Sequence record: NC_047822.1
Strand: one strand, 5' to 3'
Source of the DNA: Escherichia phage phiLLS
Length of the DNA: 64,000 nt
In this document: positions 3,923-47,936 of the stretch, in pieces
How positions within the stretch are numbered: position 1 is the first letter of the stretch
How the letters are laid out: each line of letters begins with the position of its first letter
The notes under the pieces: generated by a model
What the model was told of the DNA's origin: nothing
Seen by the model: only the letters and a program-made list of their open reading frames with translations
The model's database searches: none
Program-made: the position numbers and the translations under genes

Positions 3923-5761
3923 TTATTCTAAGTAGGAAAATCCTTCTGCATCTTTTTTGACAGTAATCTTATGAGCTAATGGATGCGTATGCCCATGAGA
4001 AACAATGATAGAATTTAGACTTTCTTCCTCATTTAATAGCTCAACGAGAGTATCAAGTCCCTTCGTATCAATAAAGCTAATTACTTCATCAAGGAATAGA
4101 AGATTAATATTAACTTTACTAATAGATGTTAACAGCATCCGAATAGCTAACAGGGTTGCTAGATTAATTCGACTTTGCTGACCAGTAGAGCAGTTTTCCA
4201 TACTGGTACGGTTTCCATCATTGAAGATTACTACTTGTAATTTAGTTTCATCTAGTTCAAATCCAAGTGCGAATTTACCACCAGTCATAATAGAAAGATA
4301 TTTATTAATTAGCTCTTCAAATACTTTCACACTATGCTCTAGTTTATATCCAACCAGATTTTTCAATGCAGCAATTAGAATATCGAGATCAGCAACAGCT
4401 TCTGATACTCCATCCAGTTTGGAAGTAATCTCAGTCATTTCTGCTTCTGCTTTCTCAATCTGTTCTAGCTTTGCTTTATATTTTGCATTGGCTAATTCGA
4501 CATTTGCATTATGCTCTTTGGCAATTGCAACCTTAGAACGGCCATCAGCGATTTCCTGTTCTAATTGTCGGATTTGCACCTGTAGGATTTGCACATTGAG
4601 TTCTTCAAAAGAAGCATCACTCATTGAATTTTTGAACTCGTCTCTAGCTACCACTGCTTTATCCAAAGCATCCTTTGCTCTAGTATACGCAACGTACTCA
4701 AGTTGTTCTTTCTTCAACTGTTCTAGCTTAGCTTCAAGAGATTGCTTCTCTTTGAACAGAGGATCATATTCTACTCTAGCCATATCCATTGCTTTTTGAG
4801 CAGCAGTTGTATCCAGATGAGTACCACAAGTAGGACATTCAGTATTTGAAGCCTCTTGCTTGAACTTCTGATAACGTTTCTTAACTTCGATCGCACGTGA
4901 GGTCACAATCGTTAAGTCACGCGTAACACTTGAGATCTCTTCGTTTTGGTCAGTGGGCGCGGGCAAATTTTTGAAAGGCTCGAAAGATTGTTCGGCAACT
5001 TGTACAGCTTTGTCCAAATTACGCAATTTAGTAATATTAGCCTCTTGAGACTTGGCTAATGCCGCCTTAATTTTCGATTCAGTAAGTTCTTGTGCTAATG
5101 GCTCTTCATCAAACTCCGGTACTTCTACAGGTTCCTGCAAAGTTCCTAGATTATTTTTTCCATTAAGGATTTTCGTAATTACAGCCATTTGGCCCTGCAA
5201 ATTATTTAAGGTATTTGCTATTTCTTTACGGTCAGCCTTAATAGTTTCCGACATTTCTTTGTATTGTTCTTGATTGAACAAGTTGACAAGAAAAGCCTTA
5301 CGTGTTGCATCTGTTGCTTTTAGAAAATCTAGGTTGGAACCCACTGATTGATAAATCAGTTTGGTGAATGTTTGAAAGTCACCACCCATAATCTCTTCAA
5401 TCATCTTGTATGTTTGGGTTGCCGTATGTCCACTAATATCTTCCCCATTCTTAATCAACGTTACTTTAGCAGTTGACTTAACTACTTTATGCAGCTCATA
5501 CTCATCATCATCTTTTGAAAAGTAAGCGTGCATATCGTATTCTTTCTTAGGGGCATTCCAAGAGAACAGAGCATCTTTCTTAATACCACGTGAGTTCTTG
5601 TTATAAAATAGTTCTTCAATAACCGTAGCGATGGTGGATTTCCCTAGTCCATTGCCACCAATTAGTTGAGTAACTGGATTCTTATCGAAATGAATTACGA
5701 TGTCCTTACCATAAGACATAACGTTACTAAATTTTAGTGTCTTAATTGTAATCTTTGACAT
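3923..5761 (-). CDS. SbcC/Rad50-like recombination ATPase
   Basis: Walker A GGNGLGKST near N-terminus, long coiled-coil, CPTCG zinc hook, C-terminal LFLDEVISFID signature; start chosen at MSKITIK (track ORF extends to 5842). Confidence 0.8.
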   Translation of the reverse strand: MSKITIKTLKFSNVMSYGKDIVIHFDKNPVTQLIGGNGLGKSTIATVIEELFYNKNSRGIKKDALFSWNAPKKEYDMHAYFSKDDDEYELHKVVKSTAKVTLIKNGEDISGHTATQTYKMIEEIMGGDFQTFTKLIYQSVGSNLDFLKATDATRKAFLVNLFNQEQYKEMSETIKADRKEIANTLNNLQGQMAVITKILNGKNNLGTLQEPVEVPEFDEEPLAQELTESKIKAALAKSQEANITKLRNLDKAVQVAEQSFEPFKNLPAPTDQNEEISSVTRDLTIVTSRAIEVKKRYQKFKQEASNTECPTCGTHLDTTAAQKAMDMARVEYDPLFKEKQSLEAKLEQLKKEQLEYVAYTRAKDALDKAVVARDEFKNSMSDASFEELNVQILQVQIRQLEQEIADGRSKVAIAKEHNANVELANAKYKAKLEQIEKAEAEMTEITSKLDGVSEAVADLDILIAALKNLVGYKLEHSVKVFEELINKYLSIMTGGKFALGFELDETKLQVVIFNDGNRTSMENCSTGQQSRINLATLLAIRMLLTSISKVNINLLFLDEVISFIDTKGLDTLVELLNEEESLNSIIVSHGHTHPLAHKITVKKDAEGFSYLE

Positions 5762-17068: not shown

Positions 17069-18040
17069 TTAATCGTATACTCGCTCTACTATGCACGGGA
17101 TTACACCACCAGCACGAATCACTCGAATCTGGCAACCGATCTCTAGATCGAGAGAGTTAATATAATCAACGTTATTAAGAGTCGCTTTAACAATTGTAGC
17201 ATCATCAATAATTACCGGTTCGAAATAACCAACTGGAGTTACTTTACCAGAAGCCCCTACCTGCCATTCAACTCTAGTAAGAGTTGTAATCTCGCCTTCT
17301 TCATCCTCTTTAATAGCGAATGCTCCACGAGGGAATTTATTAGTCCAGCCTTCCCGGAAGAATTTGTTGTTGTCATTAATACGAACAACTTTACCGTCCG
17401 TCGGAATCCATTTAAAGAAGGAACGCACATTAACAACTGTTAAGAAATCTTCATTCTCTAGCCAAAGCATATCTTTTAAGTACGATTCTGTAATACCCAC
17501 AGATTCAGCAGAACACTGGATACCGTATGCAACGAAGATTAAACCACCTTCCCCGATACGTTGTACGAAATCATCGCTATCTTTGAGGTTAATAGCACCT
17601 GAGGCAAAGTTACGTTTATTTTCTACTTCTTTTGTAATTAGAACTTCACCAGTGATTTGAGTAGGTACTTTTTGGGAAATCTTTTTAGGGATATTCAGCA
17701 GTCTTACGTTGCTTGTGACATCATTCCCTAGAATACCATTACCACGAGTTAGTGCTTGAACAAATTCGCCATTAATATATAATAGAGAAATCGCACAACC
17801 ATCTAACTTGTCAGTTTCTACCTGACCTAATGGGTTAAATGGGGGTTTATCTCCACGATTATAATAAACTTTCTGTAAAGAATACATACGGTACAGATGT
17901 GGAATATCACCCTTAGGCCCGATCTCTTCTTCTAACGGAAATCTTTTAATCAGACGATCATATTCTTCATCAGAGATTAAAGACATTCCCTGGTAATATG
18001 CTTCTTGGCAACGTTTAATAAATTCTTTTACATTGGTCAT
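17069..18040 (-). CDS. NAD-dependent DNA ligase, N-terminal adenylation part
   Basis: 323 aa; KxDG adenylation motif (TDKLDGCAISL), N-terminal NAD-binding Ia-like region. Confidence 0.8.
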   Translation of the reverse strand: MTNVKEFIKRCQEAYYQGMSLISDEEYDRLIKRFPLEEEIGPKGDIPHLYRMYSLQKVYYNRGDKPPFNPLGQVETDKLDGCAISLLYINGEFVQALTRGNGILGNDVTSNVRLLNIPKKISQKVPTQITGEVLITKEVENKRNFASGAINLKDSDDFVQRIGEGGLIFVAYGIQCSAESVGITESYLKDMLWLENEDFLTVVNVRSFFKWIPTDGKVVRINDNNKFFREGWTNKFPRGAFAIKEDEEGEITTLTRVEWQVGASGKVTPVGYFEPVIIDDATIVKATLNNVDYINSLDLEIGCQIRVIRAGGVIPCIVERVYD

Positions 18041-24250: not shown

Positions 24251-24643
24251 TCATTCATCATTTAATCCCGGAACATAGATCCCAACACGGCTTAATTGTT
24301 CTTTAGCTTCTGCGAGAATATCTGGAGTGTACTCCCAAATATCATCTTCCACCTGTAAAAGATGGGGCGAACAACCATCATCCGGCACACGACATATGGC
24401 CAACCCACGTGGATGGAATATAGAGAAGTTTAGGGCAACAATCAAGCCCATAACAGACAATTCATTCCAATCCAATTCCCATTCCCCGGCATATCCAGAC
24501 AGGAAAACGCCAATGCAGGGGTCATCTATTTGCTGCTCCGGAAAAGTGAAGGAGGCTTGCCTTACCCCCAACCAACGTTGTAGCAGTTTTTCCGCACGTT
24601 TCACCAAACTAGGGTCAATATGTCGCCAAAATACTCGTTCCAT
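24251..24643 (-). CDS. hypothetical protein, paralog of adjacent ORF
   Basis: 130 aa; shares CIG(V/L)...W.ELD.MGL(I/V)(V/F)ALN...IPGL(N/T) blocks with 24653-25081. Confidence 0.55.
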   Translation of the reverse strand: MERVFWRHIDPSLVKRAEKLLQRWLGVRQASFTFPEQQIDDPCIGVFLSGYAGEWELDWNELSVMGLIVALNFSIFHPRGLAICRVPDDGCSPHLLQVEDDIWEYTPDILAEAKEQLSRVGIYVPGLNDE

Positions 24644-24652
24644 TCTGCCTCC

Positions 24653-25081
24653 TTAAGCAGTTAAACCTGGGATGATATACCCGAAACGTCGAAGTTTCTG
24701 AATCCCCTCATTTACTTCTTCCGGTGAGTAAGACCAACCATAACGTTCATTAACCTGAAAACCAGGAGATTCACTAGTCTTATAGTTAACAACGAGGCGA
24801 TGCTTAGCAGGCATAAACAGCTTATAGTTTAACGCAAAAACTAAGCCCATTTCATCTAGCTCTTTCCATCCCACAATCTCTTCAAGACCATCCTCTACCT
24901 GCACAATTAAACCAATACATGGGGCCTCATCAATATCATCTTTAAAAGCAAAGGAGATTTCGTTATTCTCACACCATATTTTCAAAAAGTTAATAGCCTC
25001 ATTATACAGGCTAGCCGGGAGAGTACGCCAAAAGTTAACCAAAATTGGGTTAGCTTCTTTAGAGAATACATTATTGAACAT
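24653..25081 (-). CDS. hypothetical protein, paralog of adjacent ORF
   Basis: 142 aa; tandem duplicate of 24251-24643. Confidence 0.55.
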   Translation of the reverse strand: MFNNVFSKEANPILVNFWRTLPASLYNEAINFLKIWCENNEISFAFKDDIDEAPCIGLIVQVEDGLEEIVGWKELDEMGLVFALNYKLFMPAKHRLVVNYKTSESPGFQVNERYGWSYSPEEVNEGIQKLRRFGYIIPGLTA

Positions 25082-25083: not shown

Positions 25084-25590
25084 TTACACCTTAAATTGTT
25101 GTAAGGATTTACACATTTCAAGATCTGGGCTAAATTCTAGCATATAGCTAACAGCCATTAAATCTTGAAGATTTATTCCAGTTCTACCATTGACTATAAC
25201 CGTTGGATACTGGTACATCATAGCACCAGCGTCATCCAGTACACACCAATGTTTGAGCTTATGCTTTTCAACGAAGCGAAGAACAGAATTACCCCTAGAT
25301 AGCCCACCACCAGTAAAATCCGTTGTACCAAGAAAACGATCGATAAGACCCAATCCGGTCATAATCTGAACGTTCTCCATCTCATTCCTGACAGAGAACC
25401 ATGAGGATACCCCAACAATCATTATCGGAGAAGGACGAATAAAGTCCTGAAAAGCCTTGAGAAGCGGTTTGAAAACCCAGTCACTTCCAAAGAAAATCTT
25501 TTCATCATCAGGTGCATGATGGTGGGAGATGCTCGAATTGAGCACCCCATCAATGTCTAGAAAAATAATTGGAGTATTACTTATTTCCAT
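25084..25590 (-). CDS. HAD-superfamily phosphatase (putative deoxyribonucleotidase)
   Basis: 168 aa; N-terminal FLDIDGVL matches HAD motif I (DxDGxL). Confidence 0.65.
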   Translation of the reverse strand: MEISNTPIIFLDIDGVLNSSISHHHAPDDEKIFFGSDWVFKPLLKAFQDFIRPSPIMIVGVSSWFSVRNEMENVQIMTGLGLIDRFLGTTDFTGGGLSRGNSVLRFVEKHKLKHWCVLDDAGAMMYQYPTVIVNGRTGINLQDLMAVSYMLEFSPDLEMCKSLQQFKV

Positions 25591-25759
25591 TTTTGTTCCT
25601 TTCTAAGAACGTATCATACTCAGCCGTATCAACATATATGACACCATAGTCATCGGATTTATAGTCCATTTCCCACAGTTCACAGCGATAGCACCAACTA
25701 CCGTCCGCCCATACAAATATATCATCAGAGTGTGTATACACAGATTTAATTATGGACAT
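25577..25759 (-). CDS. hypothetical protein
   Basis: 60 aa ORF overlapping neighbours by a few nt (translational coupling). Confidence 0.35.
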   Translation of the reverse strand: MSIIKSVYTHSDDIFVWADGSWCYRCELWEMDYKSDDYGVIYVDTAEYDTFLERNKNGNK

Positions 25760-26574
25760 ATTTGTTTCCCCGGCATATAAGGTCTACCCTCTAGATGAGC
25801 TTCTACACGAGCAATAAAATCAGGGTCACTGAAAGCATCTACCGCACCTTTACTCCAGTAAGGGATACCGCGTTCTTCCAGCTGGTACATCTCACTACGA
25901 GTCATACCTTGATAGCCCGGTTCCGCCGCTAGGGCACTATCATAGTAGTTAACAACCATAAGTTTCGCAGCAGTCAAATTAAGAACAGGAAATAATTCCC
26001 AGTAGAAATTAATTACTTGGTTAGAGCAACCAACCACAATGATCATATCTTGACTGGTAATACCATCAAAAACATTGTACATTTCTGCATATGCAGGAGC
26101 ATGCTCTCCAAAGAAGATTACATTAGGTTTAACCCATTTATAATCATCTGGATCAATAGAATTATATCCTACATCAATAATCCGTTTATTGCTACTATTG
26201 TAGCTATCAGCTACAACAACCTCTTTTAAATATCCGTGAATGTGCAGAATATCACTATGTGGAACGCCAGCACGCTCAATAAGGTCATCAACGTTGGTAG
26301 TCAAGTTTACTACTTGACCGGGGTATTGTTTATACCATTCACCAATACGCAAATGCGCAAGATTGGGTTCAACAGTTTTTAGCTCTTCACGACGCTTGTT
26401 GTAAAACATATGGGTTTTATGATAAAAATTACCACGAAAGGCATGAATATTACATACTTCTTCTAGATCATAATCATCCCACAATGCTTTACCACTAGCA
26501 GTATCAGTACGAAAAGCTCGTACACCACTTTCAACACTCAAACCTGCACCGCTAATAATAATTAATCTACGCAC
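25750..26574 (-). CDS. Sir2-like (sirtuin family) protein
   Basis: 274 aa; ISGAGLSVESGVRAFR matches Sir2 GAGIS..SGI..FR NAD-binding motif. Confidence 0.7.
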   Translation of the reverse strand: MRRLIIISGAGLSVESGVRAFRTDTASGKALWDDYDLEEVCNIHAFRGNFYHKTHMFYNKRREELKTVEPNLAHLRIGEWYKQYPGQVVNLTTNVDDLIERAGVPHSDILHIHGYLKEVVVADSYNSSNKRIIDVGYNSIDPDDYKWVKPNVIFFGEHAPAYAEMYNVFDGITSQDMIIVVGCSNQVINFYWELFPVLNLTAAKLMVVNYYDSALAAEPGYQGMTRSEMYQLEERGIPYWSKGAVDAFSDPDFIARVEAHLEGRPYMPGKQICP

Positions 26575-26768
26575 TATACGATTCCTCGCTTAAATCCTTC
26601 GATAATATCTCGGAGTAAAATTGCTTCCTCCGGGCGTACCTTTTCTTGCTTAATAAGCATATCTAATCTAGCAATACAAGTAGCTATACCAGCATTATAA
26701 CCATAGTTCCATTGCTCAATAAGCATATTTTCTGGATTACTTTTTGGATTCTGATTCAAGAAGTCCAT
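26574..26768 (-). CDS. hypothetical protein
   Basis: 64 aa ORF. Confidence 0.35.
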   Translation of the reverse strand: MDFLNQNPKSNPENMLIEQWNYGYNAGIATCIARLDMLIKQEKVRPEEAILLRDIIEGFKRGIV

Positions 26769-26940
26769 AAAGTTTTTCCTCTAGTTCCATAACACGATTT
26801 TCATAAGAAGCACGCAACTTTTCAATTGCCAGCGCACGCACTGTAACCTCATTAGAATTAATAGCTAATTGGGCCAGGTCTTCTGTTTCCATACGTCCGT
26901 TGTAAATTAAGCGATATTTAAGATGTTTTACGTTTTTCAT
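26737..26940 (-). CDS. hypothetical protein
   Basis: 67 aa ORF. Confidence 0.35.
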   Translation of the reverse strand: MKNVKHLKYRLIYNGRMETEDLAQLAINSNEVTVRALAIEKLRASYENRVMELEEKLYGLLESESKK

Positions 26941-27311
26941 TCTTTTAGCTCCGTTCCAATATCCTCATAGAAGTAGTCGTAGTAAACCTGCTTAATATGA
27001 TGTTTAATAACAGAAGAGAAATCCTCTGTGCCATTAAGGGTAACATTAAACACTTGTAAGTGGTTCCAATATACAAATTCTAGAGTCTCTTTTAAGTCTT
27101 CAGGTTCTTCATATATAGGATTATAGACAGTAATATCTAGTTCTTGCTCTACGAAGTCACCTAGTAATGCAGGATACCCAATACCCCCTAGTAATGAGTA
27201 ATCACCTGTAGCAGCAAAAATAGCTTCCTGAACAGTATCTACTCCTAAGTGATAATGTCCTAACTTAGATACAACAATAAATGGTTTTAGGTCCATATAC
27301 CCTCCTCTCAA
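26937..27311 (-). CDS. hypothetical protein
   Basis: 124 aa ORF downstream of promoter. Confidence 0.45.
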   Translation of the reverse strand: MRGGYMDLKPFIVVSKLGHYHLGVDTVQEAIFAATGDYSLLGGIGYPALLGDFVEQELDITVYNPIYEEPEDLKETLEFVYWNHLQVFNVTLNGTEDFSSVIKHHIKQVYYDYFYEDIGTELKE

Positions 27312-27352: not shown

Positions 27353-27394
27353 ATAAAATAAAAGCCAGGTCGACTAGCAACCCGGCTGATTAGC

Positions 27395-29269
27395 TTATTT
27401 AGCTCGAATATCCTGATGTTTCACCCTGCCCATAACCTCGTGCTGTTTGCCGGGGTTAAATGGACGAGCGCCCGGATTTCCAAGATACCCACAAACTCGA
27501 CGAGTTACTTCAAGAGTTTCGGGGTCATGATTACCACAGATAGGGCACTTAAATCCATCTTCGGATGCTATTGTTTCACCTAAGAATCCACATTTACCAC
27601 AGGAATCCACTGGGGTATTAATACCGAAGTAATGAACCTTACTAGCAGCATAATTAATAACCCATTCCAGTGCATCTGGGAATCGTTTCATATCCGGTAG
27701 TTCTACATAGGAAATGCACCCACCAGAAGCAATCGGAGTAAAGTTAGATTCATAATCAAATTTGACGTTAGGAGCAACTTTACGTTCCACATCAAGGTGA
27801 TGCGAGTTAGTGTAGTATCCTTTAGACAGAATATCTTCATGCTCTGGGAAATATTCACGGTCTAAACGGCAAAACCTATCACATAGGGACTCTGATGGTG
27901 TAGCATACAGGCTATAACCTAACTTAGTCTCTTCCTTCTTCTGATCGACTCTATCTCGCATGTACTGCAATACACGCTGAACAAACTTGATGCAGGTCTC
28001 TGACATTGTGTCTACATCTTTGCCAAACATGAACTGTAGCATTTCATGGCAACCAATATACCCTAGAGATACAGAAGCACGGTTATAGAAATGATCGAAT
28101 ACATATTCATCAGGCTCCAAGCGTAACCCAAAGGCTCCTGACATATAGAGGATGGGTGCAGCTTTAGCTTGGATGTACTTTAAGCGATCAACTCTCCACT
28201 CCAATGCTTTTAACGCTGTATCCACACGTAGCTCAAGCAAATCAAAGAATAGATCAATATTTCCTTCAGCTTCGATAGCAATTCTAGGCAAGTTTACAGA
28301 AACAACACCTAAGTTATTACGGCCAGCAGTTTCACCATCTTCTGCAGCAGCTAGGAATGAACGGCAGCCCATAGAAACTTTATAGTCTCCAGTAACTTCT
28401 ACAACTTTGTCATAGCTGATATAATCTGGATACATACGTTCAGCAGTACATTTCATAGCTAACTTCTTGATGTCATAATTAACATCTCCTGGTTTCATAT
28501 TTACGCCATCGCGAAGTACAAATACCAGTTTCGGGAAGATAGCTGTACGTTTATTGATACCTAAACCATCCATGCGTACTTTCAGTATTGCTTTCTGTAC
28601 TAGACGTGCTTCCCAGGAAGTTCCTAGACCAAAACCAAAGGTAATAAATGGACTCTGACCATTAGAGTTGAACATGGTATTGATTTCATATTCTAAACCC
28701 TGACAAGCGTCATAGACTTCTTTTTCAGTCATCTCCGTAGCCATTACTGATGCTTTGGCTTCATCCTTAGTCCAACGTTTTGCAAACGCATGATTTTTGT
28801 CATAGGATTTACGAACATAAGGGGCTAATACTTCATCAAGGCGATCTACAGAAGTACCACCATACTGATGGGAGCTAACCTGAGTGATAATCTGAGCAGT
28901 AATAGCCGCCGCAGTAGTGATAGAGTTTGGAGTGCTAATTTCAGCATTACCAACCTTCATACCATTCTTCAACATATCTTCCAGAGCTACCAGACAACAG
29001 TTAGTCATGCCTAATGCAGCATAATCAGCATCATGGAAATGAATATCCCCAATCATATGAGCATTTCGAATCTGAATTGGCATTTCTTCTAGAATCAGAT
29101 ACTTACTCAATTCACCTGCAAGCATATCCCTTTGTGTAGGGAAACGTTCTGAGGGTTTATTGGCATTATTAAACAGCAGCTCTTCATCTGCTGACCCTTC
29201 GATAATCTCTTTGCAGTTTCTAATTAACGCCTGCATTTCTTTATATTTTAGTTCTTCATTACGATTCAT
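27395..29269 (-). CDS. nrdD: anaerobic ribonucleoside-triphosphate reductase (class III RNR)
   Basis: 624 aa; C-terminal glycyl-radical motif RVCGYLG and Zn-ribbon CGKCGF...CPICG. Confidence 0.9.
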   Translation of the reverse strand: MNRNEELKYKEMQALIRNCKEIIEGSADEELLFNNANKPSERFPTQRDMLAGELSKYLILEEMPIQIRNAHMIGDIHFHDADYAALGMTNCCLVALEDMLKNGMKVGNAEISTPNSITTAAAITAQIITQVSSHQYGGTSVDRLDEVLAPYVRKSYDKNHAFAKRWTKDEAKASVMATEMTEKEVYDACQGLEYEINTMFNSNGQSPFITFGFGLGTSWEARLVQKAILKVRMDGLGINKRTAIFPKLVFVLRDGVNMKPGDVNYDIKKLAMKCTAERMYPDYISYDKVVEVTGDYKVSMGCRSFLAAAEDGETAGRNNLGVVSVNLPRIAIEAEGNIDLFFDLLELRVDTALKALEWRVDRLKYIQAKAAPILYMSGAFGLRLEPDEYVFDHFYNRASVSLGYIGCHEMLQFMFGKDVDTMSETCIKFVQRVLQYMRDRVDQKKEETKLGYSLYATPSESLCDRFCRLDREYFPEHEDILSKGYYTNSHHLDVERKVAPNVKFDYESNFTPIASGGCISYVELPDMKRFPDALEWVINYAASKVHYFGINTPVDSCGKCGFLGETIASEDGFKCPICGNHDPETLEVTRRVCGYLGNPGARPFNPGKQHEVMGRVKHQDIRAK

Positions 29270-29462
29270 TACACCCTCCTTCTCTAACTAAGACTACTAT
29301 TATAACTCATTCGAGGGCGGATGTCAATATAATTTTTCTCTTAGATATTGTATTTTGATCTGTGCTAAGAAAATTGATCAGAATGTCAAAATTTTATTGA
29401 CACCACCATAACTTTTGTATAAGATATATACATAACTTAAAAAATTTGACAAGGAAATAAAA

Positions 29463-37729: not shown

Positions 37730-38202
37730 GCGTTTTCCACATTTACACAGATGGTGCTTGTAAGTCTAACCCAGGTCCAGGTGCTTGGGGTTTTATTGTC
37801 TATGATGATAACGACGATCGTTTAGGTTCTAAATCTGGATATAGTCCTAAAACTACAAATAATGAGATGGAACTCACGGCTATTGTAGAGGCTCTACGTT
37901 GGTCAGTTAAAAAAGATAATAGACCAATTGTTATCTATACTGACTCTGCTTATTGCAAAAATGGCATGGAAAGTTGGATGTTTTCTTGGCAAAGGAAAGG
38001 CTGGAAGAAAGCAGATGGTGAAGTTCCTCTTAATCTAGAACTTTGGCAGGAAGCATTTAAATTAACACAGCAGTATATCAACTTTCATAATACTAACCCT
38101 ACCTTTATTAAGGTTAAAGGACATTCTGGTATTAGTGGTAATGAAGCTGTAGACGCCTTATGTAACACAGTTATTACTGAAGCTGAAATGGCTGAGATGT
38201 AA
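37726..38202 (+). CDS. rnhA: ribonuclease H
   Basis: 158 aa; IYTDGACKSNPGPGAWG and YTDSAY, GHSG motifs. Confidence 0.85.
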   Translation: MSVFHIYTDGACKSNPGPGAWGFIVYDDNDDRLGSKSGYSPKTTNNEMELTAIVEALRWSVKKDNRPIVIYTDSAYCKNGMESWMFSWQRKGWKKADGEVPLNLELWQEAFKLTQQYINFHNTNPTFIKVKGHSGISGNEAVDALCNTVITEAEMAEM

Positions 38203-38222
38203 TAAATAAATTAAAAATTCTC

Positions 38223-38251
38223 TTGCTTAAATCTCTCTAATTTAGTATAAT
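38223..38251 (+). promoter_or_regulatory. sigma70-type early promoter
   Basis: TTGCTT-17-TATAAT. Confidence 0.55.
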
Positions 38252-38278
38252 ATTTGTATTGAAAGTGAGGAGGGCTTT

Positions 38279-38557
38279 ATGCGGATTTATAACTCAAATT
38301 CATTAGGATTTAAACCATTGAGAAAACGTGCACAATCACCTCGTCAAATAAGAAAGGCTAATATTGGTGAGCCAGAAACACGTCTTCCACCTCCTCCAGA
38401 ACAACGTTTAGTTTATCTGGATGAAGAGTTAGCTGAACGCGAAAGAAAAGCTCAAGAAGAGATTGAGCGTAAGAAAATGTGTACTGCTCCAGCGTATAAT
38501 AAAGGAGCGTATCAATATGTTTCCGATGCAGAACAAGCCAAGATGGTTGGTAGATAA
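38279..38557 (+). CDS. hypothetical protein
   Basis: 92 aa ORF with GAGGAGGG SD. Confidence 0.5.
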   Translation: MRIYNSNSLGFKPLRKRAQSPRQIRKANIGEPETRLPPPPEQRLVYLDEELAERERKAQEEIERKKMCTAPAYNKGAYQYVSDAEQAKMVGR

Positions 38558-38573
38558 TTTTTAAAAAATTCAT

Positions 38574-38602
38574 TTGCTAAACGCTTCAAATTCTCGTATA
38601 AT
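38574..38602 (+). promoter_or_regulatory. sigma70-type early promoter (canonical copy of repeated module)
   Basis: AAAAATTCATTTGCTA -35, 17 bp, TATAAT, then CATAAATTGA. Confidence 0.65.
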
Positions 38603-38640
38603 ATACTTCATAAATTGATAAACAAAAAGGAAAATAAATA

Positions 38641-39156
38641 ATGGCTAAGCAGAAAAACGCAAAAACTCAAGCAGCTACTACAGTTAAAACTTTCCCTCAG
38701 ACTGAGGCTAACCGCAAAGCTCGTCTGGAACGCCACCTGCGCAAGCACCCTACTGATGCTCAAGCTGCACAGGCACTGAATCGTCCGGCTCCGATTCGTC
38801 AAAAGCCGAAGGCTAAGAACGCAACTCGTTCTGTAGCCCGCCTTGTGACCTATGTACAGGGTTACGGTCACAAATCTGTTCCAGTAGCACTGAGTTTCAA
38901 TGCTGGAGCAGAATTGTTCCCTCGTAATGGCATGGCCATGAAAGATTACGAGAAAGCAGTTAACCAGAAACGCAAACCAACGGCAGATGTATTGCGTGAT
39001 ACTCGTGGACAGTTTGGTTCTGTTAAGCCAAATATCTTTGGCGTAGAGTATAGTAAAGATAATGTTCGTGCTCTGTGTTACGGTGTAGGCATTAAGTTCA
39101 CGGGTGATTCTGCTCGTAAATCTGCTAAACCAGCTCGTAAACGTAAAGCGAAGTAA
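38641..39156 (+). CDS. hypothetical basic protein (possible nucleic-acid binding)
   Basis: 171 aa, Lys/Arg-rich termini. Confidence 0.5.
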   Translation: MAKQKNAKTQAATTVKTFPQTEANRKARLERHLRKHPTDAQAAQALNRPAPIRQKPKAKNATRSVARLVTYVQGYGHKSVPVALSFNAGAELFPRNGMAMKDYEKAVNQKRKPTADVLRDTRGQFGSVKPNIFGVEYSKDNVRALCYGVGIKFTGDSARKSAKPARKRKAK

Positions 39157-44135: not shown

Positions 44136-44207
44136 CGGGGTGTAGTCTAAGGGAGAGGCAGGAGTCTTCTAAATTCCTTTATGCAGGTTCGAATCCTGTC
44201 ACCTCGG
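44136..44207 (+). tRNA. tRNA-Arg (anticodon TCT)
   Basis: 7-bp acceptor, D/anticodon/T arms fold; TTCGAAT T-loop; CCA encoded. Confidence 0.8.
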
Positions 44208-44244
44208 CCAATTTTATTAACTGTAACTAAAACAAAGGAAATAT

Positions 44245-45192
44245 ATGTTTGCTACTAAAAATATGAAAGAACTGACTTCTGAGCAGAAAGTAATTCGTAC
44301 TATTAAACGTTGGGGTATTGGTGCTGTAGTTGGTTTAGCAGGTTTAGTCCTAGCTTTTAATTCATATACTATTGTTTCTGATGGTACGGTTAAAACCCAA
44401 ACATTCCTGGGTAAAGTAGACCCTAATCCTGTATTACCTGGTTTTCATCTTGTAAACCCATTTGCATCTTTCGATACTTTTAGTACAAAAGACATTGCTG
44501 TAAAATTAGATAAACTTCAGGTTCCTAGTCAGGATAAGTTTAAATCCACTGTTGACCTGACTGTTATGTTGCAGTTTGATGGTTCTAAGGCACCAATTAA
44601 CCGTATTAACGCAGGTACTCAGGACCAGGCGCTAGACAAGTATGTAACTGAAAAATTACTGTCTACTATTCGTGAGTTTGGTAAATCTGTACCTAAAGCA
44701 CAAGATTTATTTGATGCTAAAATTCAGGCTCAATTGCAAACTGCAATTCAACAGGAAGTTGAAGAGTATGCACGCCCATATGGTTACACAGTTAAGCAGG
44801 TGTTTCTTCAGGATATTACTTTGCCACCAGTAATTATGGAGCAAGTACAAAATACAAAAGTTCGTGAAGAACAAGTTAATGCGGCTAAAGCTGAATTGGC
44901 TCGTGTTGAACAAGAAGCACAGCAGAAAGTCAAACAAGCTGAAGCAGATCGTGAAGCACGTAACAACCAAGCTATCGCTAATGAACGTGACGCCGATGCT
45001 AAGCTGTATGCAGCTAAGAAAGAAGCTGAAGCTAACGCCGCATTGCAACGTACCATTACTCCTGAGATGATTCGTTGGAAGCAATTGGAAGTCGAAATGA
45101 TTCGTGCTCAGAAATATCAAGGTGGTGTACCTCAGACTGTGGTAGGTACTGGCTACGATGGTCAAATGATCATGGATATGCGTAATAAATAA
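44245..45192 (+). CDS. SPFH/band-7 (HflC/prohibitin-like) membrane protein
   Basis: 315 aa; N-terminal TM helix, SPFH-like core, long Ala/Gln/Glu-rich coiled coil. Confidence 0.7.
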   Translation: MFATKNMKELTSEQKVIRTIKRWGIGAVVGLAGLVLAFNSYTIVSDGTVKTQTFLGKVDPNPVLPGFHLVNPFASFDTFSTKDIAVKLDKLQVPSQDKFKSTVDLTVMLQFDGSKAPINRINAGTQDQALDKYVTEKLLSTIREFGKSVPKAQDLFDAKIQAQLQTAIQQEVEEYARPYGYTVKQVFLQDITLPPVIMEQVQNTKVREEQVNAAKAELARVEQEAQQKVKQAEADREARNNQAIANERDADAKLYAAKKEAEANAALQRTITPEMIRWKQLEVEMIRAQKYQGGVPQTVVGTGYDGQMIMDMRNK

Positions 45193-45214
45193 TATCCGCA
45201 CGTAACATCTGAAG

Positions 45215-45252
45215 TAAGCCCTGCGTTCCCTGGAGAGCGCAGGGCTTTTCTG
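45215..45252 (+). terminator. rho-independent terminator
   Basis: agccctgcg...cgcagggct hairpin + TTTTCT. Confidence 0.7.
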
Positions 45253-45269
45253 TACTTAAGATAAAAGAA

Positions 45270-45302
45270 AAGCCCCTAAGTCTTTCTACTAGGGGCTTTA
45301 TT
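45270..45302. terminator. bidirectional terminator hairpin
   Basis: agcccctag...ctaggggct hairpin flanked by A-run and T-rich tail. Confidence 0.6.
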
Positions 45303-45516
45303 GTTTGGTTTCTTAGAACCATATACTCTTGTTACAGCAACCACCCATACGGGAGGCCAATCTTGACTGAAAATCTACTCTAGGGGGCAGGATAAGAGTA
45401 GGCTTAAAGGCAAAGGGATTGAACGCCGGTATTTGTGTAAACATTGCTGGAGAGCAACAACGTGCTACAGGCATTGGGCAGCACGAAACAGATTTTCTGC
45501 AACACATAATTTCTCC

Positions 45517-45933
45517 TTAGGAGTTATTACCACCATTTTGAGCTTTTGCAACTTGGCTTTGGCAGAAGCTATTAAACTTACCCATAAGTGATACAAGCTG
45601 TTTCCCATCCTCTGTCTTTGCGAAGTCTTCGAAAAGGGCTAGTACTGCCTGTCCTTCCGCAGAAACCTGCGGTTGTTGGGTTTGTTGCTGAACTTGCTGC
45701 TGAGCCACCTGTTGCTGCATTTGTTGAGGCATTTGCGACTGCCCGCTCATTTGCTGCATCATTTGCATAGGACTCACACTTCCAGGGTTTTGCTGGAGTT
45801 GTTGCTGCATCTGTTGCGCTTCTGCTAAACGCTGTTGCAATTGTTGTAAGTAGGGGTTATCCAGACCCGGAATGGGCTGCTGGGAGCCCCTACTTTGATT
45901 AAGTCCGTTATTTACAAAACCATATTTACTCAT
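45517..45933 (-). CDS. Gln-rich low-complexity protein (hypothetical)
   Basis: 138 aa; poly-Q/QQM repeats; co-oriented with 45955-46947. Confidence 0.55.
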   Translation of the reverse strand: MSKYGFVNNGLNQSRGSQQPIPGLDNPYLQQLQQRLAEAQQMQQQLQQNPGSVSPMQMMQQMSGQSQMPQQMQQQVAQQQVQQQTQQPQVSAEGQAVLALFEDFAKTEDGKQLVSLMGKFNSFCQSQVAKAQNGGNNS

Positions 45934-45954
45934 AATGGGCTCCTCCCCCTAATA

Positions 45955-46947
45955 TTAAGCCGGCAGTTTAGCCTGCAGACCAGCCAGAGTCTGAGTGATA
46001 GCACCAAGACTTACAGCGATTTGATTAATTACCTGACCGTTAGCACCGTTACCCGCAGCGATTGCTTCACGTAGGCGACATGCATCTAACTCATCCTGAA
46101 TACGAGCAGTAGTTACACCAGCGATAGCAGTCTGAAGTTCACAGCAACATTCAGCGATCTGACGTTCCAGAGAGTTCTGGTTAGCACACATCTGAGCCTG
46201 AACAGCGGCAAACTGGTTATTAGTTTGTAAAGTCTGCTGGAAAGCGATCTGTGCAGAATCAAACTTATCTTGTGCACGAGCTATCTGATTAGCTGCGAAA
46301 GATTGATCAATCTGGCGAGAAAGATCGAACTGACCCTGAATAACGTTGCGAGTTTCCTGACAGATCTGATTAGACAGATTAGCACCTGTACCATAGATCG
46401 TAGTTAGTACAGACTGAGTATCACGGCTCTGGTTTTGGGATGTCTGGCTAAACCCATTGTTAACTGCGCTTAAAACAGCTCCAGTACCCTGGTTAGCTTC
46501 TGTACGAGTAGTGTTAATAGCTGCTAGAATACTAGCGGTATCTTGGTTCTGAAGTACTGCATCAACTGCGGTACCATCACCAACTACACCACGTCCACCG
46601 AATCCACCGAAACCACCGAATCCGCCTGTTAATAGAGCACCGATTAGGATAGCTCCGAATAGTCCCATACCTTCACCACCGAAAGCACCTGCGTTTGCTG
46701 GGTAACCACCCAGTAGGCCAGGGAAGCCACTAGTAAATACGTTTACTGGTTCTTGCATTTTATGTTTTCCATATTTATGACAATGTTCATCGTCATCTTC
46801 TTCATCATCGTGTTCACGATGTTTTTCTTCGTAGGCTCTGACCTTCTCCCACTTTTTCTTATCTGATTCCTCGTGACGGTGCAGTTCTGCTGCAACGCTA
46901 GCGACGGTCTCAGGACTCTTAGCTACTTCTTCTGTCATTTTTGACAC
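45955..46947 (-). CDS. Gly-rich / Gln-Asn-Ala-rich hypothetical protein with His/acidic N-terminus
   Basis: 330 aa; strong SD (AGGAGGTG); GGFGGFGGFGG hydrophobic Gly segment; C-terminal half predicted helical. Confidence 0.6.
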   Translation of the reverse strand: MSKMTEEVAKSPETVASVAAELHRHEESDKKKWEKVRAYEEKHREHDDEEDDDEHCHKYGKHKMQEPVNVFTSGFPGLLGGYPANAGAFGGEGMGLFGAILIGALLTGGFGGFGGFGGRGVVGDGTAVDAVLQNQDTASILAAINTTRTEANQGTGAVLSAVNNGFSQTSQNQSRDTQSVLTTIYGTGANLSNQICQETRNVIQGQFDLSRQIDQSFAANQIARAQDKFDSAQIAFQQTLQTNNQFAAVQAQMCANQNSLERQIAECCCELQTAIAGVTTARIQDELDACRLREAIAAGNGANGQVINQIAVSLGAITQTLAGLQAKLPA

Positions 46948-47145
46948 CTCCTAGTATATAGAAAATGTGTGTCTCTTTGATCACTCATCCATAACATATA
47001 CTTTACACTACCCCAGCGAAAATGTCAAGGGGTCTTTAAAAATTGCCCCTGAATTTTTAGTGGGGTCACAAATTTTGGTCCTCACCACTTATCTGCTATC
47101 CTTAAGTGCCCTATGATTTTCCTCTAAAAAGTTAAAAAAATTTGA

Positions 47146-47174
47146 TTGCTTGAATGCTAAATTCTCTGTATAAT
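47146..47174 (+). promoter_or_regulatory. sigma70-type early promoter
   Basis: TTGCTT-17-TATAAT. Confidence 0.55.
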
Positions 47175-47204
47175 ATATCTATAAATTTGAAAGAGGAACC
47201 AAAT

Positions 47205-47723
47205 ATGAATGTTGATGAGCTAACACAGCACCTCTTATCTAGAGGATTTGATACAGATAAATATCATTGCTGGTTAAGTCCGGAAGGATGGCTAACAGTC
47301 CCGTTGTATGACTTCTCTGGGATGTTGAGGGGCTATCAAACTTATAATCCTTCTGCTCCAAAAGGTCATGGTAAGTGCCCCTTTGAAGCTAAATACTTTA
47401 CTTATTCTACTACCCAGTGTGTATGGGGACTAGAAACTCTCAATGGAGATGAAAAAGTAGTATTGATTGCTGAATCTGTATTTAAGGCAGTTGCGTTACA
47501 TAATGCTGGTTATCCAGCCCTAGCAATGTTGGGTTCTTCTCCAGGAAAAGCGTTATTAAAGCAACTGAAATTACTACCTTTTAAATTGGTAGCTGTCGGA
47601 GATAATGATCCTGCGGGTGAAAAATTTGCTAGAAAATTAAACGGCTTTGTTTCTCCCGTAGATGTGGATGAGATGTCTACCGAAAACTTGAAAAATTTTC
47701 TTGCTATGAAGCTAAATTTCTAA
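47205..47723 (+). CDS. TOPRIM-domain protein (hypothetical)
   Basis: 172 aa; VVLIAESVFKAV ... AVGDNDPAGEKFARKL resembles TOPRIM E...DxD core. Confidence 0.5.
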   Translation: MNVDELTQHLLSRGFDTDKYHCWLSPEGWLTVPLYDFSGMLRGYQTYNPSAPKGHGKCPFEAKYFTYSTTQCVWGLETLNGDEKVVLIAESVFKAVALHNAGYPALAMLGSSPGKALLKQLKLLPFKLVAVGDNDPAGEKFARKLNGFVSPVDVDEMSTENLKNFLAMKLNF

Positions 47724-47729
47724 TATAAT
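47700..47729 (+). promoter_or_regulatory. sigma70-type promoter overlapping 3' end of preceding ORF
   Basis: TTGCTA-18-TATAAT. Confidence 0.45.
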
Positions 47730-47744
47730 ATATCTTATAAATTC

Positions 47745-47830
47745 GGAAGAATAGCATAACGGTATTGCAGCAGATTGCTAATCTGTCGGTTTGAAATATA
47801 GCCTTGTGGGTTCGATTCCCGCTTCTTCCG
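47745..47830 (+). tRNA. tRNA-Ser (anticodon GCT), class II
   Basis: perfect acceptor ggaagaa/ttcttcc, long variable arm, TTCGATT T-loop, CCA encoded. Confidence 0.8.
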
Positions 47831-47839
47831 CCAAATTCT

Positions 47840-47914: not shown

Positions 47915-47936
47915 CCAAATTAAATAGAGGTCACAA

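What the first reader, a model, noticed from the sequence alone, without database searches (positions are those of the whole stretch)
25084..26574. Sir2-like protein adjacent to an HAD phosphatase: possible NAD-linked module
The Sir2-like ORF (GAGLS..SGV.AFR motif) and the HAD-type phosphatase (FLDIDGVL) are neighbours and translationally coupled through small ORFs. Sir2 domains act as NAD-consuming enzymes, including as effectors in bacterial anti-phage systems. The phage also depends on NAD through its NAD-dependent ligase. The Sir2 homolog could manipulate host NAD or ADP-ribose pools or counter NAD-depletion defences; this is speculative.
Basis: partly seen in the sequence, partly recalled or inferred. 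Interest (0 to 1): 0.5.

Follow-up and report, generated by a model that had tools for sequence, protein, structure and literature searches.

The report
T5-phage sirtuin plus HAD phosphatase cassette
This is the long-annotated sirtuin gene of T5-like phages with its conserved neighbour, a small HAD-type phosphatase; the pairing is real and already published, no function has been tested, and relatives of the phosphatase sit inside phage NAD-rebuilding operons, which points to a role in NAD/ADP-ribose chemistry.

Summary
The window is a Tequintavirus (T5-like phage). On the minus strand lie a 274-aa Sir2 protein (25750-26574), a 60-aa ORF overlapping both neighbours, and a 168-aa HAD_SAK_2 phosphatase (25084-25590). 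All three are under strong purifying selection.

The Sir2 is CobB-like (class III). Every NAD-binding and catalytic residue and the YxxR anion-binding motif are invariant, but the zinc cysteines are missing. It matches no defence-type SIR2 model.

The pair is not new. T5 has carried the annotation since 2005. The loss of zinc in phage sirtuins was noted in 2016. Iyer et al. (2022) described this sirtuin plus "Swiss-army-knife" HAD neighbourhood and predicted KptA-like, NAD-dependent RNA 2'-phosphate removal. I found no experimental test.

New here:
- The pair stays adjacent in either gene order across distant T5-like phages.
- It is deleted in the viable phage DT57C.
- The closest non-T5 relatives of the HAD head NARP1-like (Adps-Namat) NAD-rebuilding operons in Vequintavirinae-type myoviruses.

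That last point suggests the HAD acts on a phosphorylated ADP-ribose species, as the Macro phosphatase Adpp does.

Verdict: a real, already known cassette of unresolved function. The "NAD-linked" reading is partly supported; the counter-defence reading is untested.

The parts
25750..26574 (-). Sir2 (sirtuin), 274 aa; orthologue of T5 T5p100. CobB-like class III sirtuin without the zinc Cys4 site.
   Evidence: Pfam SIR2 E 7.9e-25. phrog_2162 E 2e-121. Best PDB sequence hit is E. coli CobB 1s5p, E 1.8e-17. Foldseek top hits are CobB, TM 0.83 on the target. Invariant across 64 clade members: GAGxS, F21 R22, F57 Y58 xx R61 R62, N94, D96, H113, FFxE154-157, GxS182-184, N209. The segment H113..P150 holds 0 Cys in 40 of 64 sequences and never four. 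dN/dS about 0.1.
25577..25759 (-). 60-aa protein with a conserved '..W.DGSWCYR..' motif (T5p102-like). It overlaps the Sir2 stop by 10 nt and the HAD start by 14 nt.
   Evidence: phrog_5116 E 1.5e-29. Homologues follow Sir2 in T5 (two paralogues), in L003 and in Klebsiella phage Roth39, which has no HAD. dN/dS 0.11. Sequence.
25084..25590 (-). HAD-superfamily phosphatase of the HAD_SAK_2 family, 168 aa, with no cap domain; orthologue of T5 T5p103.
26937..27311 (-). 124-aa protein of unknown function (T5p098-like), first gene after the NrdD terminator. It travels with the cassette.
   Evidence: phrog_11748 E 3.7e-64. Homologues (34-48% identity) lie between HAD and Sir2 in L070 and L075; a 118-aa ORF occupies the same position in Pantoea phage AAS21 but was not compared.
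26574..26940 (-). Two small ORFs (26737-26940, 67 aa; 26574-26768, 64 aa) between the T5p098-like gene and Sir2. The stop codon of the second overlaps the Sir2 GTG start by one base.
   Evidence: phrog_5236 and phrog_5827, unknown function. Junction sequence.
24251..25081 (-). Two paralogous DUF7415 proteins (24653-25081, 142 aa; 24251-24643, 130 aa) directly downstream of the HAD (T5p104/T5p105-like).
   Evidence: Pfam DUF7415 E 1.4e-35 and 1.7e-30. Homologues are also downstream of Sir2 in My1 and in the HAD-less Roth39. dN/dS 0.06-0.22.
27363..27387 (-). Intrinsic-terminator-like hairpin after nrdD. It marks the upstream boundary of the cassette's transcription unit.
   Evidence: 10-bp stem with 6 G-C pairs, followed by a T-run. 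In T5 the annotators place putative promoters after nrdD and just before Sir2.

Best explanation
This is a conserved, dispensable early-gene cassette of T5-like phages. It pairs an NAD+-consuming sirtuin with a Mg-dependent phosphomonoesterase.

The reading I commit to is as follows. The sirtuin uses NAD+ to remove an anionic group from a macromolecule. The most probable target is a 2'-phosphate on damaged or religated RNA, in a KptA/Tpt1-like reaction as Iyer et al. predicted. The phosphate oxygen attacks C1'' of NAD+. The conserved His then promotes attack of the ribose 2''-OH, which releases ADP-ribose 1'',2''-cyclic phosphate. The invariant Tyr58/Arg61 pair, which holds a carboxylate in CobB and SIRT5, would hold the phosphate. 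The HAD then hydrolyses a phosphomonoester belonging to this chemistry. That is either the leftover terminal 2'/3'-phosphate on the nucleic acid or, as I think more likely, the phosphorylated ADP-ribose by-product (ADPR-1''-phosphate). The product would be plain ADP-ribose.

Shown here: the domain identities, intact active sites, purifying selection, linkage kept through a change of gene order, and the two other genomic contexts. Inferred: both substrates, and that the two enzymes act in one pathway at all.
For: 1. The Sir2 looks like an active NAD+ enzyme. All NAD-binding and catalytic residues are invariant in 64 clade members.
2. A 59%-identical member of the same clade sits inside an operon reading Metallophos - RNA ligase (Rnl1) - cREC - AAA_33 kinase - Sir2 - DNA ligase in a Klebsiella myovirus. 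I confirmed this published type-2 neighbourhood (PMC9503650).
3. The HAD belongs to the family defined from RNA-repair proteins. One relative is fused to a calcineurin-like phosphoesterase. Another lies 3 kb from an Rnl2-like ligase.
4. Sir2 and HAD stay adjacent in two gene orders. The order is Sir2-small-HAD in Tequintavirus, Epseptimavirus and My1. It is HAD-small-Sir2 in L003, L070/71, L075 and Pantoea phage AAS21. HAD identity falls to about 40% and Sir2 identity to 50-69% across these.
5. HADs 38-43% identical to this one head NARP1-like operons (Prs-like Adps plus NAPRTase-like Namat) in six phages or contigs: ChuuTotoro, Kashira, ABPH49, L005, L069 and L081. In the four of these whose Pfam content was listed (ChuuTotoro/L004, L005, L069, L081) no Macro gene is called.
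6. Osterman et al. 2026 showed that a Macro phosphatase (Adpp) in NARP1 operons converts ADPR-1''P to ADPR. So a phosphatase in that position has an experimentally established rationale.
7. ADPR-1''P is also the downstream product of the KptA route, via the yeast Poa1p step cited. One substrate class would therefore explain both HAD contexts.
Against: No biochemical or genetic test exists for any phage sirtuin or for this HAD in the literature I could search.

The 64-kb window has no RNA ligase, cREC, polynucleotide kinase or Metallophos homologue (tblastn). An RNA-repair pathway would therefore be incomplete in this window and would need host enzymes, unless the partners lie in the unsearched remainder of the genome.

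The closest characterised relatives by sequence and fold are protein deacylases, not nucleic-acid enzymes.

All Sir2-HAD pairs lie in one phage family with conserved flanks (PhoH, NrdD, D2 helicase), so inherited synteny explains part of the linkage. Sugarland-like Klebsiella phages keep Sir2 without the HAD, and some myoviruses have the HAD without Sir2. Neither gene strictly needs the other.

Confidence: 0.35

Rival explanations
1. The Sir2 is an ordinary CobB/SIRT5-type protein lysine deacylase (deacetylase or desuccinylase). The phage would use it early in infection to rewire the host or phage acyl-proteome, for example by activating acetyl-CoA synthetase. The HAD would be an unrelated neighbour or act on something else.
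For: The best sequence hits are E. coli CobB (E 1.8e-17) and SIRT5. The Foldseek top 50 are all canonical sirtuins, led by CobB. NCBIfam hits are all 'NAD-dependent protein deacylase' models. The class III Tyr/Arg pair, equivalent to CobB Y92/R95 needed for desuccinylation (PMC6636992), is invariant. Skliros et al. 2016 proposed this role for phage Sir2/CobB (PMC5107563).
Against: Identity to CobB is only 24-26%. The score is far below the CobB equivalog cut-off (90 bits against 320). The zinc Cys4 module that shapes the peptide cleft has lost its cysteines. Clade members are embedded in RNA-repair operons. This reading does not explain why a phosphatase stays linked in either gene order.
Confidence: 0.3
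2. The cassette is a counter-defence acting on the NAD+ pool. The HAD would be a non-homologous analogue of the Macro phosphatase Adpp, clearing ADPR-1''P made by RES-type NAD+ phosphorylases or another phosphorylated ADPR or NAD product. The Sir2 would act on NAD-derived molecules rather than on macromolecules. This is essentially the first reader's idea.
For: The HAD is associated with NARP1-like operons in six phages or contigs. Adpp sets the precedent. T5-like phages are known to invest in NAD+ defence evasion through NARP3 in TrudiRoth/Bas30. The phage depends on NAD+ through its ligase.
Against: This window has no Adps or Namat to use the ADPR. No known small-molecule reaction of a CobB-like sirtuin would restore NAD+; a sirtuin consumes it. 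The Sir2 is unrelated to any known anti-defence protein. DT57C lacks the cassette and is viable, although that is expected for accessory anti-defence genes.
Confidence: 0.15
3. The Sir2 is an NADase or ADP-ribosyltransferase used for host shut-off or for excluding superinfecting phages, like defence SIR2 effectors carried by prophages.
For: Sirtuin active sites can hydrolyse NAD+ or ADP-ribosylate targets. Iyer et al. assign such roles to a minority of phage sirtuins.
Against: No match to any PADLOC SIR2 defence model. No HerA, TIR, SLOG, pAgo or Macro partner among the cassette genes or in the examined relatives. T5 is strictly lytic and itself needs NAD+ for its ligase. The fold is closest to deacylases.
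Confidence: 0.05
4. The adjacency has no functional meaning. Both are independent accessory early genes that sit in a variable slot between nrdD and the D2 helicase of Demerecviridae.
For: All pairs come from one phage family with the same flanks. The slot is mosaic: Sir2 is only about 51% identical between Tequintavirus and Epseptimavirus while the HAD is about 90% identical, and NrdD switches between about 100% and about 60% alleles independently. Roth39 has Sir2 without the HAD.
Against: The two genes remain neighbours after a change in gene order and at only 40% HAD identity. They were deleted together in DT57C. Both of the HAD's main partners, Sir2 and NARP1, are NAD+ enzymes, which independent placement would not predict.
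Confidence: 0.15

Closest known systems
Bacteriophage T5 genes T5p100 (Sir2 family) and T5p103 (hypothetical), GenBank AY692264
   Same: Orthologues: 94% (Sir2) and 99% (HAD) amino-acid identity, and the same position between nrdD and the D2 helicase.
   Different: T5 has two small 'WCYR' ORFs (T5p101, T5p102) between them; this window has one.
Sirtuin plus 'Swiss-army-knife-like' HAD neighbourhood of the Escherichia phage SP15 group (Iyer, Burroughs, Anantharaman, Aravind 2022, PMC9503650, section 3.7.3)
   Same: It is the same gene pair. SP15 is a Tequintavirus, and the description matches: a phage-specific sirtuin clade next to a SAK-type HAD, with no Macro partner.
   Different: Nothing structural. 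That paper gives only a computational prediction (KptA-like 2'-phosphate removal) and does not mention the association of the HAD with NARP1 operons.
E. coli CobB and mammalian SIRT5 (class III sirtuin deacylases)
   Same: Same fold, NAD+ site, catalytic Asn/Asp/His and the YxxR acidic-acyl motif.
   Different: 24-26% identity. No zinc cysteines, as already noted for phage Sir2/CobB in PMC5107563. Fails the CobB equivalog cut-off. Different genomic context.
KptA/Tpt1 RNA 2'-phosphotransferase with Poa1p (Macro) ADPR-1''P phosphatase
   Same: This is the proposed working analogy: NAD+-dependent removal of an RNA 2'-phosphate, followed by dephosphorylation of the ADP-ribose phosphate by-product.
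   Different: No homology. KptA has an ART fold and Poa1p a Macro fold; here the folds are sirtuin and HAD. The activity is untested.
NARP1-AP (Adps - Adpp Macro phosphatase - Namat), Osterman et al. 2026 bioRxiv 10.64898/2026.01.28.702374
   Same: A phosphatase gene is embedded in a NARP1 operon. HADs about 40% identical to the T5 one occupy the head of such operons.
   Different: The HAD fold is not the Macro fold. This window has no Adps or Namat. The substrate of the HAD is unknown.
Defence-associated SIR2 NADases (ThsA, DSR1/2, Sir2-HerA, pAgo-SIR2)
   Same: The Sir2 superfamily fold and the use of NAD+.
   Different: No PADLOC model match, no sensor or partner domains, and these structures are absent from the top 50 fold matches.
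T4 polynucleotide kinase/phosphatase (HAD-type 3'-phosphatase domain)
   Same: A phage HAD phosphatase with the DxD motif and a proposed role on nucleic-acid ends.
   Different: Only a weak fold match (Foldseek E 0.2, TM 0.41). No kinase domain. No sequence match to any PDB chain.

Membership tests
Sirtuin / SIR2 superfamily (Pfam PF02146) | Profile match above the curated threshold, and the Rossmann-type sirtuin fold | tested here: met
   88.3 bits against a cut-off of 24. Model pLDDT 90.2. Foldseek probability 1.00 to CobB, Sir2-Af1 and SIRT5.
Sirtuin / SIR2 superfamily (Pfam PF02146) | NAD+-binding and catalytic residues: GAGxS, FR, (T/Q)N(I/V)D, HG, FGE, GxS, C-terminal N | tested here: met
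   G9 A10 G11 S13, F21 R22, T93 N94 V95 D96, H113 G114, F154 F155 E157, G182 S184 and N209 are invariant in 64 sequences.
Sirtuin / SIR2 superfamily (Pfam PF02146) | Zinc-binding module with four cysteines (CxxC...CxxC) | tested here: not met
   The segment H113..P150 has 0 Cys in 40 of 64 clade members, 1 in 22 and 2 in 2. The three-stranded sheet is still modelled. The same was noted for Vibrio phage Sir2/CobB in PMC5107563.
Class III sirtuins (CobB / SIRT5 deacylases) | YxxR motif that binds acidic acyl groups | tested here: met
   F57 Y58 N K R61 R62 aligns with CobB FYNARR and is invariant. The role of CobB Y92/R95 in desuccinylation is as cited in PMC6636992.
Class III sirtuins (CobB / SIRT5 deacylases) | Score above the NCBIfam CobB equivalog cut-off (functional equivalence by sequence) | tested here: not met
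   NF040867 gives 90 bits against a cut-off of 320. All seven deacylase models fall below their cut-offs.
Class III sirtuins (CobB / SIRT5 deacylases) | NAD+-dependent lysine deacylase activity | not testable with these tools
   This needs an enzyme assay. I found no published assay for any phage sirtuin.
Defence-associated SIR2 NADase systems | Match to defence SIR2 profiles, and a partner sensor or effector gene (HerA, TIR/ThsB, SLOG, pAgo, DSR C-terminal domain) | tested here: not met
   PADLOC gives no SIR2 model hit. The cassette genes scanned are small ORFs, the HAD and DUF7415 proteins, with NrdD upstream.
HAD superfamily phosphatases, HAD_SAK_2 (PF18143) | Profile match; motifs I (DxD), II (S/T), III (K/R) and IV (DD); Rossmannoid HAD fold | tested here: met
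Published phage sirtuin - SAK-HAD neighbourhood (Iyer et al. 2022, type 3) | A sirtuin of the phage-specific clade adjacent to a SAK-type HAD, with no Macro partner, in SP15-like phages | tested here: met
   Adjacency. Clade membership. SP15 is a Tequintavirus. None of the cassette genes scanned has a Macro domain.
KptA/Tpt1 RNA 2'-phosphotransferase | ART-fold KptA domain | tested here: not met
   The protein has a sirtuin fold. Any resemblance would be functional, not homologous.
KptA/Tpt1 RNA 2'-phosphotransferase | NAD+-dependent transfer of an RNA 2'-phosphate to give ADPR 1'',2''-cyclic phosphate | not testable with these tools
   Predicted by PMC9503650. It requires biochemistry.
NARP1 / NARP1-AP NAD+ reconstitution pathway | Adps (Prs-like) and Namat (Nampt-like) genes in the operon | tested here: not met
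   tblastn of ChuuTotoro Adps-like and Namat-like proteins against the window finds nothing meaningful. They are present next to HAD relatives in other phages.
NARP1 / NARP1-AP NAD+ reconstitution pathway | Macro-domain ADPR-1''P phosphatase (Adpp) | tested here: not met
   The phosphatase here has a HAD fold, not a Macro fold. Whether it has the same activity was not testable.

The most novel reading that the evidence does not exclude
The HAD_SAK_2 protein is a second, non-Macro type of phage ADP-ribose-phosphate phosphatase, a functional analogue of Adpp. It would serve NARP1 in Vequintavirinae-type phages. In T5-like phages it would serve a zinc-less sirtuin that is the first non-ART enzyme to remove RNA 2'-phosphates, or another phosphate group, with NAD+. 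The T5 cassette would then be a compact two-enzyme unit linking RNA or macromolecule repair to the NAD+/ADPR arms race with host immunity.
Probability: 0.2. Interest if true: 0.75.

Novelty: already known. Interest (0 to 1): 0.38.

Why it matters
Sirtuins of this clade occur in about 1,000 sequenced phages, yet none has a tested function. NAD+ and ADP-ribose chemistry has recently become a central battleground between bacteria and phages (NARP1, NARP2, NARP3, aRES and Adpp). T5 is a tractable model phage, and nature has already supplied a deletion control: DT57C lacks the cassette while its sister phage DT571/2 has at least the Sir2 gene intact. The link between this HAD family and NARP1 operons gives a concrete, inexpensive substrate hypothesis (ADPR-1''P or a related phosphate). 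It could settle whether phage sirtuins are deacylases, RNA-repair enzymes or NAD-pool modulators. As a genome observation, however, the pair is ordinary and already described.

Tried and rejected
1. Defence-type SIR2: the PADLOC scan was negative. Rejected.
3. Survey of 63 IMG/VR loci carrying HAD-like genes. Beyond the T5-like loci, the HADs are only 22-33% identical and none has a Sir2 nearby. A few have NAPRTase-like or Prs-like genes within 10 kb (L029, L037, L042). These are too distant to bear on the T5 protein.
4. Rosetta-stone search for fusions among 7,695 HAD_SAK_2 relatives. It found only tandem HADs, one Metallophos-HAD fusion and a DUF2442 fusion. There was no fusion to Sir2, Macro, Nudix or NAD-salvage domains.
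5. RNA ligase, cREC, kinase, Metallophos and NARP1 genes in the window: none by tblastn.
6. NARP3 (PnuC/NadR) in the window: not seen among the ten large ORFs scanned. The window covers only part of the genome, so this stays open.
7. A suspected HAD upstream of the NARP1 genes in Klebsiella phage vB_Kpn_K54_rec4: it turned out to be an HTH/T5orf172 homing-endonuclease-like gene.
8. Literature searches for any experiment on T5 or other phage sirtuins: only genome reports, the 2016 modelling paper and the 2022 comparative paper.
9. Promoter scan of the region: no more hits than in shuffled sequence, apart from the perfect nrdD promoter. It gives no evidence for a dedicated cassette promoter.
Full report
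**What is there**

The window is a T5-like phage. The 3.4 kb around the finding is 92-96% identical at the DNA level to many Tequintavirus genomes such as chee24, phiAPCEc03 and HdH2.

The minus strand reads in this order:
- nrdD (27395-29269), followed by a strong terminator-like hairpin at 27387-27363.
- Three small ORFs: 26937-27311, 26737-26940 and 26574-26768.
- Sir2 (25750-26574, 274 aa, GTG start).
- A 60-aa ORF (25577-25759).
- A HAD phosphatase (25084-25590, 168 aa).
- Two DUF7415 paralogues (24653-25081 and 24251-24643).

The 60-aa ORF overlaps the Sir2 stop by 10 nt and the HAD start by 14 nt. The Sir2 GTG overlaps the stop codon of the preceding ORF, and each start has a purine-rich Shine-Dalgarno-like element. 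In T5 itself these genes are T5p098 to T5p105. Sir2 is T5p100 and the HAD is T5p103, which is annotated as hypothetical. An NAD-dependent DNA ligase A subunit lies at 17069-18040.

**Are the genes real and active?**

dN/dS against orthologues at several divergence levels is 0.05-0.15 for Sir2, the 60-aa ORF and the HAD.

In 64 clade members that are 55-87% identical to this Sir2, the following are invariant:
- The GAGxS loop and F21/R22.
- The FFxE motif, GxS and N209.

In 13 HAD homologues down to 36% identity, the nucleophile and acid pair D12/D14, S62/S63, R99 and D119/D120 are invariant. AlphaFold models are confident, with pLDDT 90.2 and 94.4.

**What kind of Sir2?**

- The best solved relatives by sequence are E. 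coli CobB (E 1.8e-17), archaeal Sir2-Af1/Af2 and SIRT5.
- By fold, the top 50 matches are all canonical sirtuins, led by CobB at TM 0.83 normalised on the target.
- No model of a defence-system SIR2 matches.
- The class III motif FYxxRR is invariant as Y58/R61. The CobB equivalents, Y92 and R95, are reported as important for desuccinylation (PMC6636992).
- The segment that replaces the zinc ribbon has no cysteine in 40 of 64 clade members and never four. It is still modelled as a three-stranded sheet.
- The protein scores far below the CobB equivalog thresholds.

It is therefore a CobB-derived, zinc-less, phage-specific sirtuin clade. That clade is found in 998 phage records: T5-like siphoviruses, rV5/Mydo-like myoviruses, and Vibrio and jumbo phages.

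**What kind of HAD?**

**Prior knowledge**

The T5 gene has been annotated as Sir2 since the 2005 genome. Skliros et al. 2016 noted that phage Sir2/CobB lacks the zinc site, listed T5 and My1 as carriers, and proposed a deacetylase role (PMC5107563).

Iyer, Burroughs, Anantharaman and Aravind 2022 described three conserved neighbourhoods of this sirtuin clade. [quoted passage not shown] They predicted that the sirtuin works like KptA, removing RNA 2'-phosphates with NAD+, and that the associated phosphoesterases either open cyclic phosphates or process the ADPR>P product (PMC9503650). SP15 is a Tequintavirus. The finding is therefore already in the literature as a comparative-genomic observation. 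I found no experiment on any phage sirtuin or on this HAD.

1. *Linkage survives rearrangement.* Tequintavirus, Epseptimavirus and Pectobacterium phage My1 have Sir2-small ORF-HAD. A distant metagenomic T5-like phage (L003), two others (L070/71, L075) and Pantoea phage AAS21 (L083) have HAD-small ORF-Sir2. In these the HAD is only 40-44% identical and the Sir2 51-69% identical to the window proteins. The protein between them in L070 and L075 is a homologue of the window's 26937-27311 ORF, and AAS21 has an uncompared 118-aa ORF in the same place. The small "WCYR" protein follows Sir2 in T5, L003 and the HAD-less Roth39.

2. *The slot is mosaic.* Between Tequintavirus and Epseptimavirus the Sir2 is about 51% identical but the HAD about 90%. 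NrdD alleles of about 100% and about 60% identity assort independently.

3. *Neither gene is obligatory.*
 - DT57C retains only a 273-nt remnant fusing Sir2 residues 169-233 to HAD residues 128-168. Its authors annotated it "defective".
 - Sugarland-like Klebsiella phages keep Sir2, the WCYR protein and the DUF7415 proteins but have no HAD.

4. *A second context for the HAD.* The nearest HADs outside the T5 family are 38-43% identical, as close as those of the distant T5-like phages. They sit at the 5' end of operons encoding a PRPP-synthetase-like protein and a roughly 595-aa NAPRTase-family protein.
 - This is seen in Serratia phages ChuuTotoro and Kashira, in the record named Acinetobacter phage ABPH49, and in three metagenomic myovirus contigs.
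 - That gene pair is the signature of NARP1, made of Adps and Namat (bioRxiv 10.1101/2024.02.11.579819).
 - In ChuuTotoro the HAD stop overlaps the Adps-like start. No Sir2 homologue (tBLASTn) and no annotated RNA ligase is found in the surrounding 40 kb.
 - In a related Klebsiella phage without the HAD, the Sir2 (59% identical to the window protein) lies in an operon reading Metallophos-RNA ligase-cREC-kinase-Sir2-DNA ligase. That operon is divergent from the NARP1-like genes.
 - Osterman et al. 2026 showed that 15% of NARP1 operons carry a Macro phosphatase, Adpp. It converts ADPR-1''P, the product of RES-type NAD+ phosphorylases, into ADPR so that NARP1 can work. The HAD is not mentioned there.
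 - The four HAD-bearing NARP1 loci whose Pfam content I saw have no Macro gene.

**How it most likely works**

Two independent lines tie the sirtuin clade and the HAD family to nucleic-acid end healing:
- The RNA ligase/cREC/kinase operon.
- The RNA-repair origin of the HAD family, plus a Metallophos-HAD fusion and a nearby Rnl2-like ligase.

Two lines tie the HAD to NAD+ enzymes: its adjacency to Sir2 and its position in NARP1 operons.

One substrate class reconciles all of them, namely a phosphorylated ADP-ribose. A KptA-like reaction yields ADPR 1'',2''-cyclic phosphate and then ADPR-1''P. That is the molecule which yeast Poa1p and phage Adpp dephosphorylate.

The chemistry is plausible for a sirtuin, although this is my inference. 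An oxygen nucleophile on the substrate attacks C1' of the nicotinamide ribose. The catalytic His then activates the ribose hydroxyl to form a 1',2'-cyclic species. The invariant Tyr/Arg pair is an anion-binding site.

I therefore commit, at about 35%, to [quoted passage not shown]. The HAD substrate would be ADPR-1''P or a terminal 2'/3'-phosphate.

The main weakness is that the window encodes no RNA ligase, cREC or polynucleotide kinase. The pathway would need host partners.

The rivals:
- The chief rival, at about 30%, is that the Sir2 is simply a protein deacylase, as its homology suggests.
The phage has no Adps or Namat here, and a sirtuin consumes NAD+ rather than restoring it.
- An NADase or exclusion role is unlikely, at about 5%.
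- Meaningless synteny remains possible, at about 15%.

**Verdict**

The cassette is already known, both as annotated genes and as a published neighbourhood with a mechanistic prediction.

The session adds three things:
- A demonstration that the linkage survives a change in gene order.
- A natural deletion (DT57C) that can serve as a control.
- A lead I did not find in the searchable literature: this HAD family also heads NARP1 operons, which suggests an Adpp-like activity.

Interest is moderate (0.38). The biology is timely and easy to test, but the finding itself would not surprise a specialist.

Noticed in passing
window 25084-25590; L001 (chee24 NC_047885) 4085-4381; L080 (DT57C NC_027356) 2980-3252: Annotation artefact. 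PHROG phrog_18062, labelled 'Sir2 (NAD-dependent deacetylase)', is really the C-terminal 92 residues of the HAD (E 3.8e-57 to HAD residues 77-168, but only 2.3e-6 to Sir2). It probably derives from the DT57C 'sir2 (defective)' remnant, which fuses a Sir2 fragment to the HAD C-terminus. As a result many RefSeq and GenBank T5-like records label the HAD, or a truncated 98-aa call of it, as a second 'Sir2'.
   Followed up: yes
L080 (Escherichia phage DT57C) 2980-3252; also L020: A natural deletion of about 1.3 kb removes most of Sir2, the small ORF and most of the HAD in the viable phage DT57C. Its sister phage DT571/2 keeps a full-length Sir2 (96% identical); its HAD was not checked. The pair could serve as a near-isogenic control for function tests.
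   Followed up: partly
L004/L077 (Serratia phage ChuuTotoro ON287369, record 37735-39104), L005, L069, L081: HAD_SAK_2 genes 38-43% identical to the T5 HAD sit directly upstream of NARP1-like Adps/Namat genes, overlapping them in ChuuTotoro. A conserved 125-140-aa protein precedes the HAD. No Macro (Adpp) gene is present. I did not see this association mentioned in the NARP1 or aRES papers I could read.
   Followed up: partly
window 25577-25759 (-): A small conserved protein with the motif 'W.DGSWCYR' always follows the Sir2 gene in T5-like phages, including Sugarland-like phages that lack the HAD. T5 has two tandem paralogues (T5p101, T5p102). It could be a Sir2 partner or regulator. Function unknown.
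   Followed up: partly
window 26937-27311 (-): The 124-aa T5p098-like protein (phrog_11748) is upstream of Sir2 here, but its homologues sit between HAD and Sir2 in L070 and L075. It moves with the cassette.
   Followed up: partly
window 24251-25081 (-): Two tandem DUF7415 paralogues (33% identical to each other) follow the HAD. Homologues occur in My1 and Roth39, and the T5 annotation notes similarity to proteins of T4-like Aeromonas phage Aeh1 and of P2-like phages. No function is known.
   Followed up: no
window 27395-29269 (nrdD) versus 25750-26574 (Sir2), compared in L006-L020: There is a mosaic boundary between nrdD and Sir2. Among T5-like phages, NrdD is either about 93-100% or about 60% identical to the window protein, independently of whether Sir2 is about 95-99% or about 51% identical. 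The HAD stays at 90% or more. This indicates frequent allele replacement by recombination in this region.
   Followed up: no
window 29299-29327 (-) and 27363-27387 (-): A perfect consensus sigma-70 promoter (TTGACA, 17 nt spacer, TATAAT) lies upstream of nrdD, and a strong hairpin plus T-run terminator lies right after it. Together they isolate nrdD as its own transcription unit ahead of the Sir2 cassette.
   Followed up: no
window 44136-55956 (+): A cluster of 21 tRNA genes, including tRNA-Lys(ttt) and tRNA-Tyr(gta), typical of T5-like phages. It matters for any RNA-damage or repair interpretation, because the phage may replace tRNAs rather than repair them.
   Followed up: no
L076 (Klebsiella phage vB_Kpn_K54_rec4) 3923-12777: In this myovirus the NARP1-like operon and the RNA-repair operon containing Sir2 (Metallophos, Rnl1, cREC, AAA_33 kinase, Sir2, DNA ligase) are divergently arranged within about 5 kb. 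NAD-rebuilding and putative NAD-consuming repair genes therefore form one island.
   Followed up: partly
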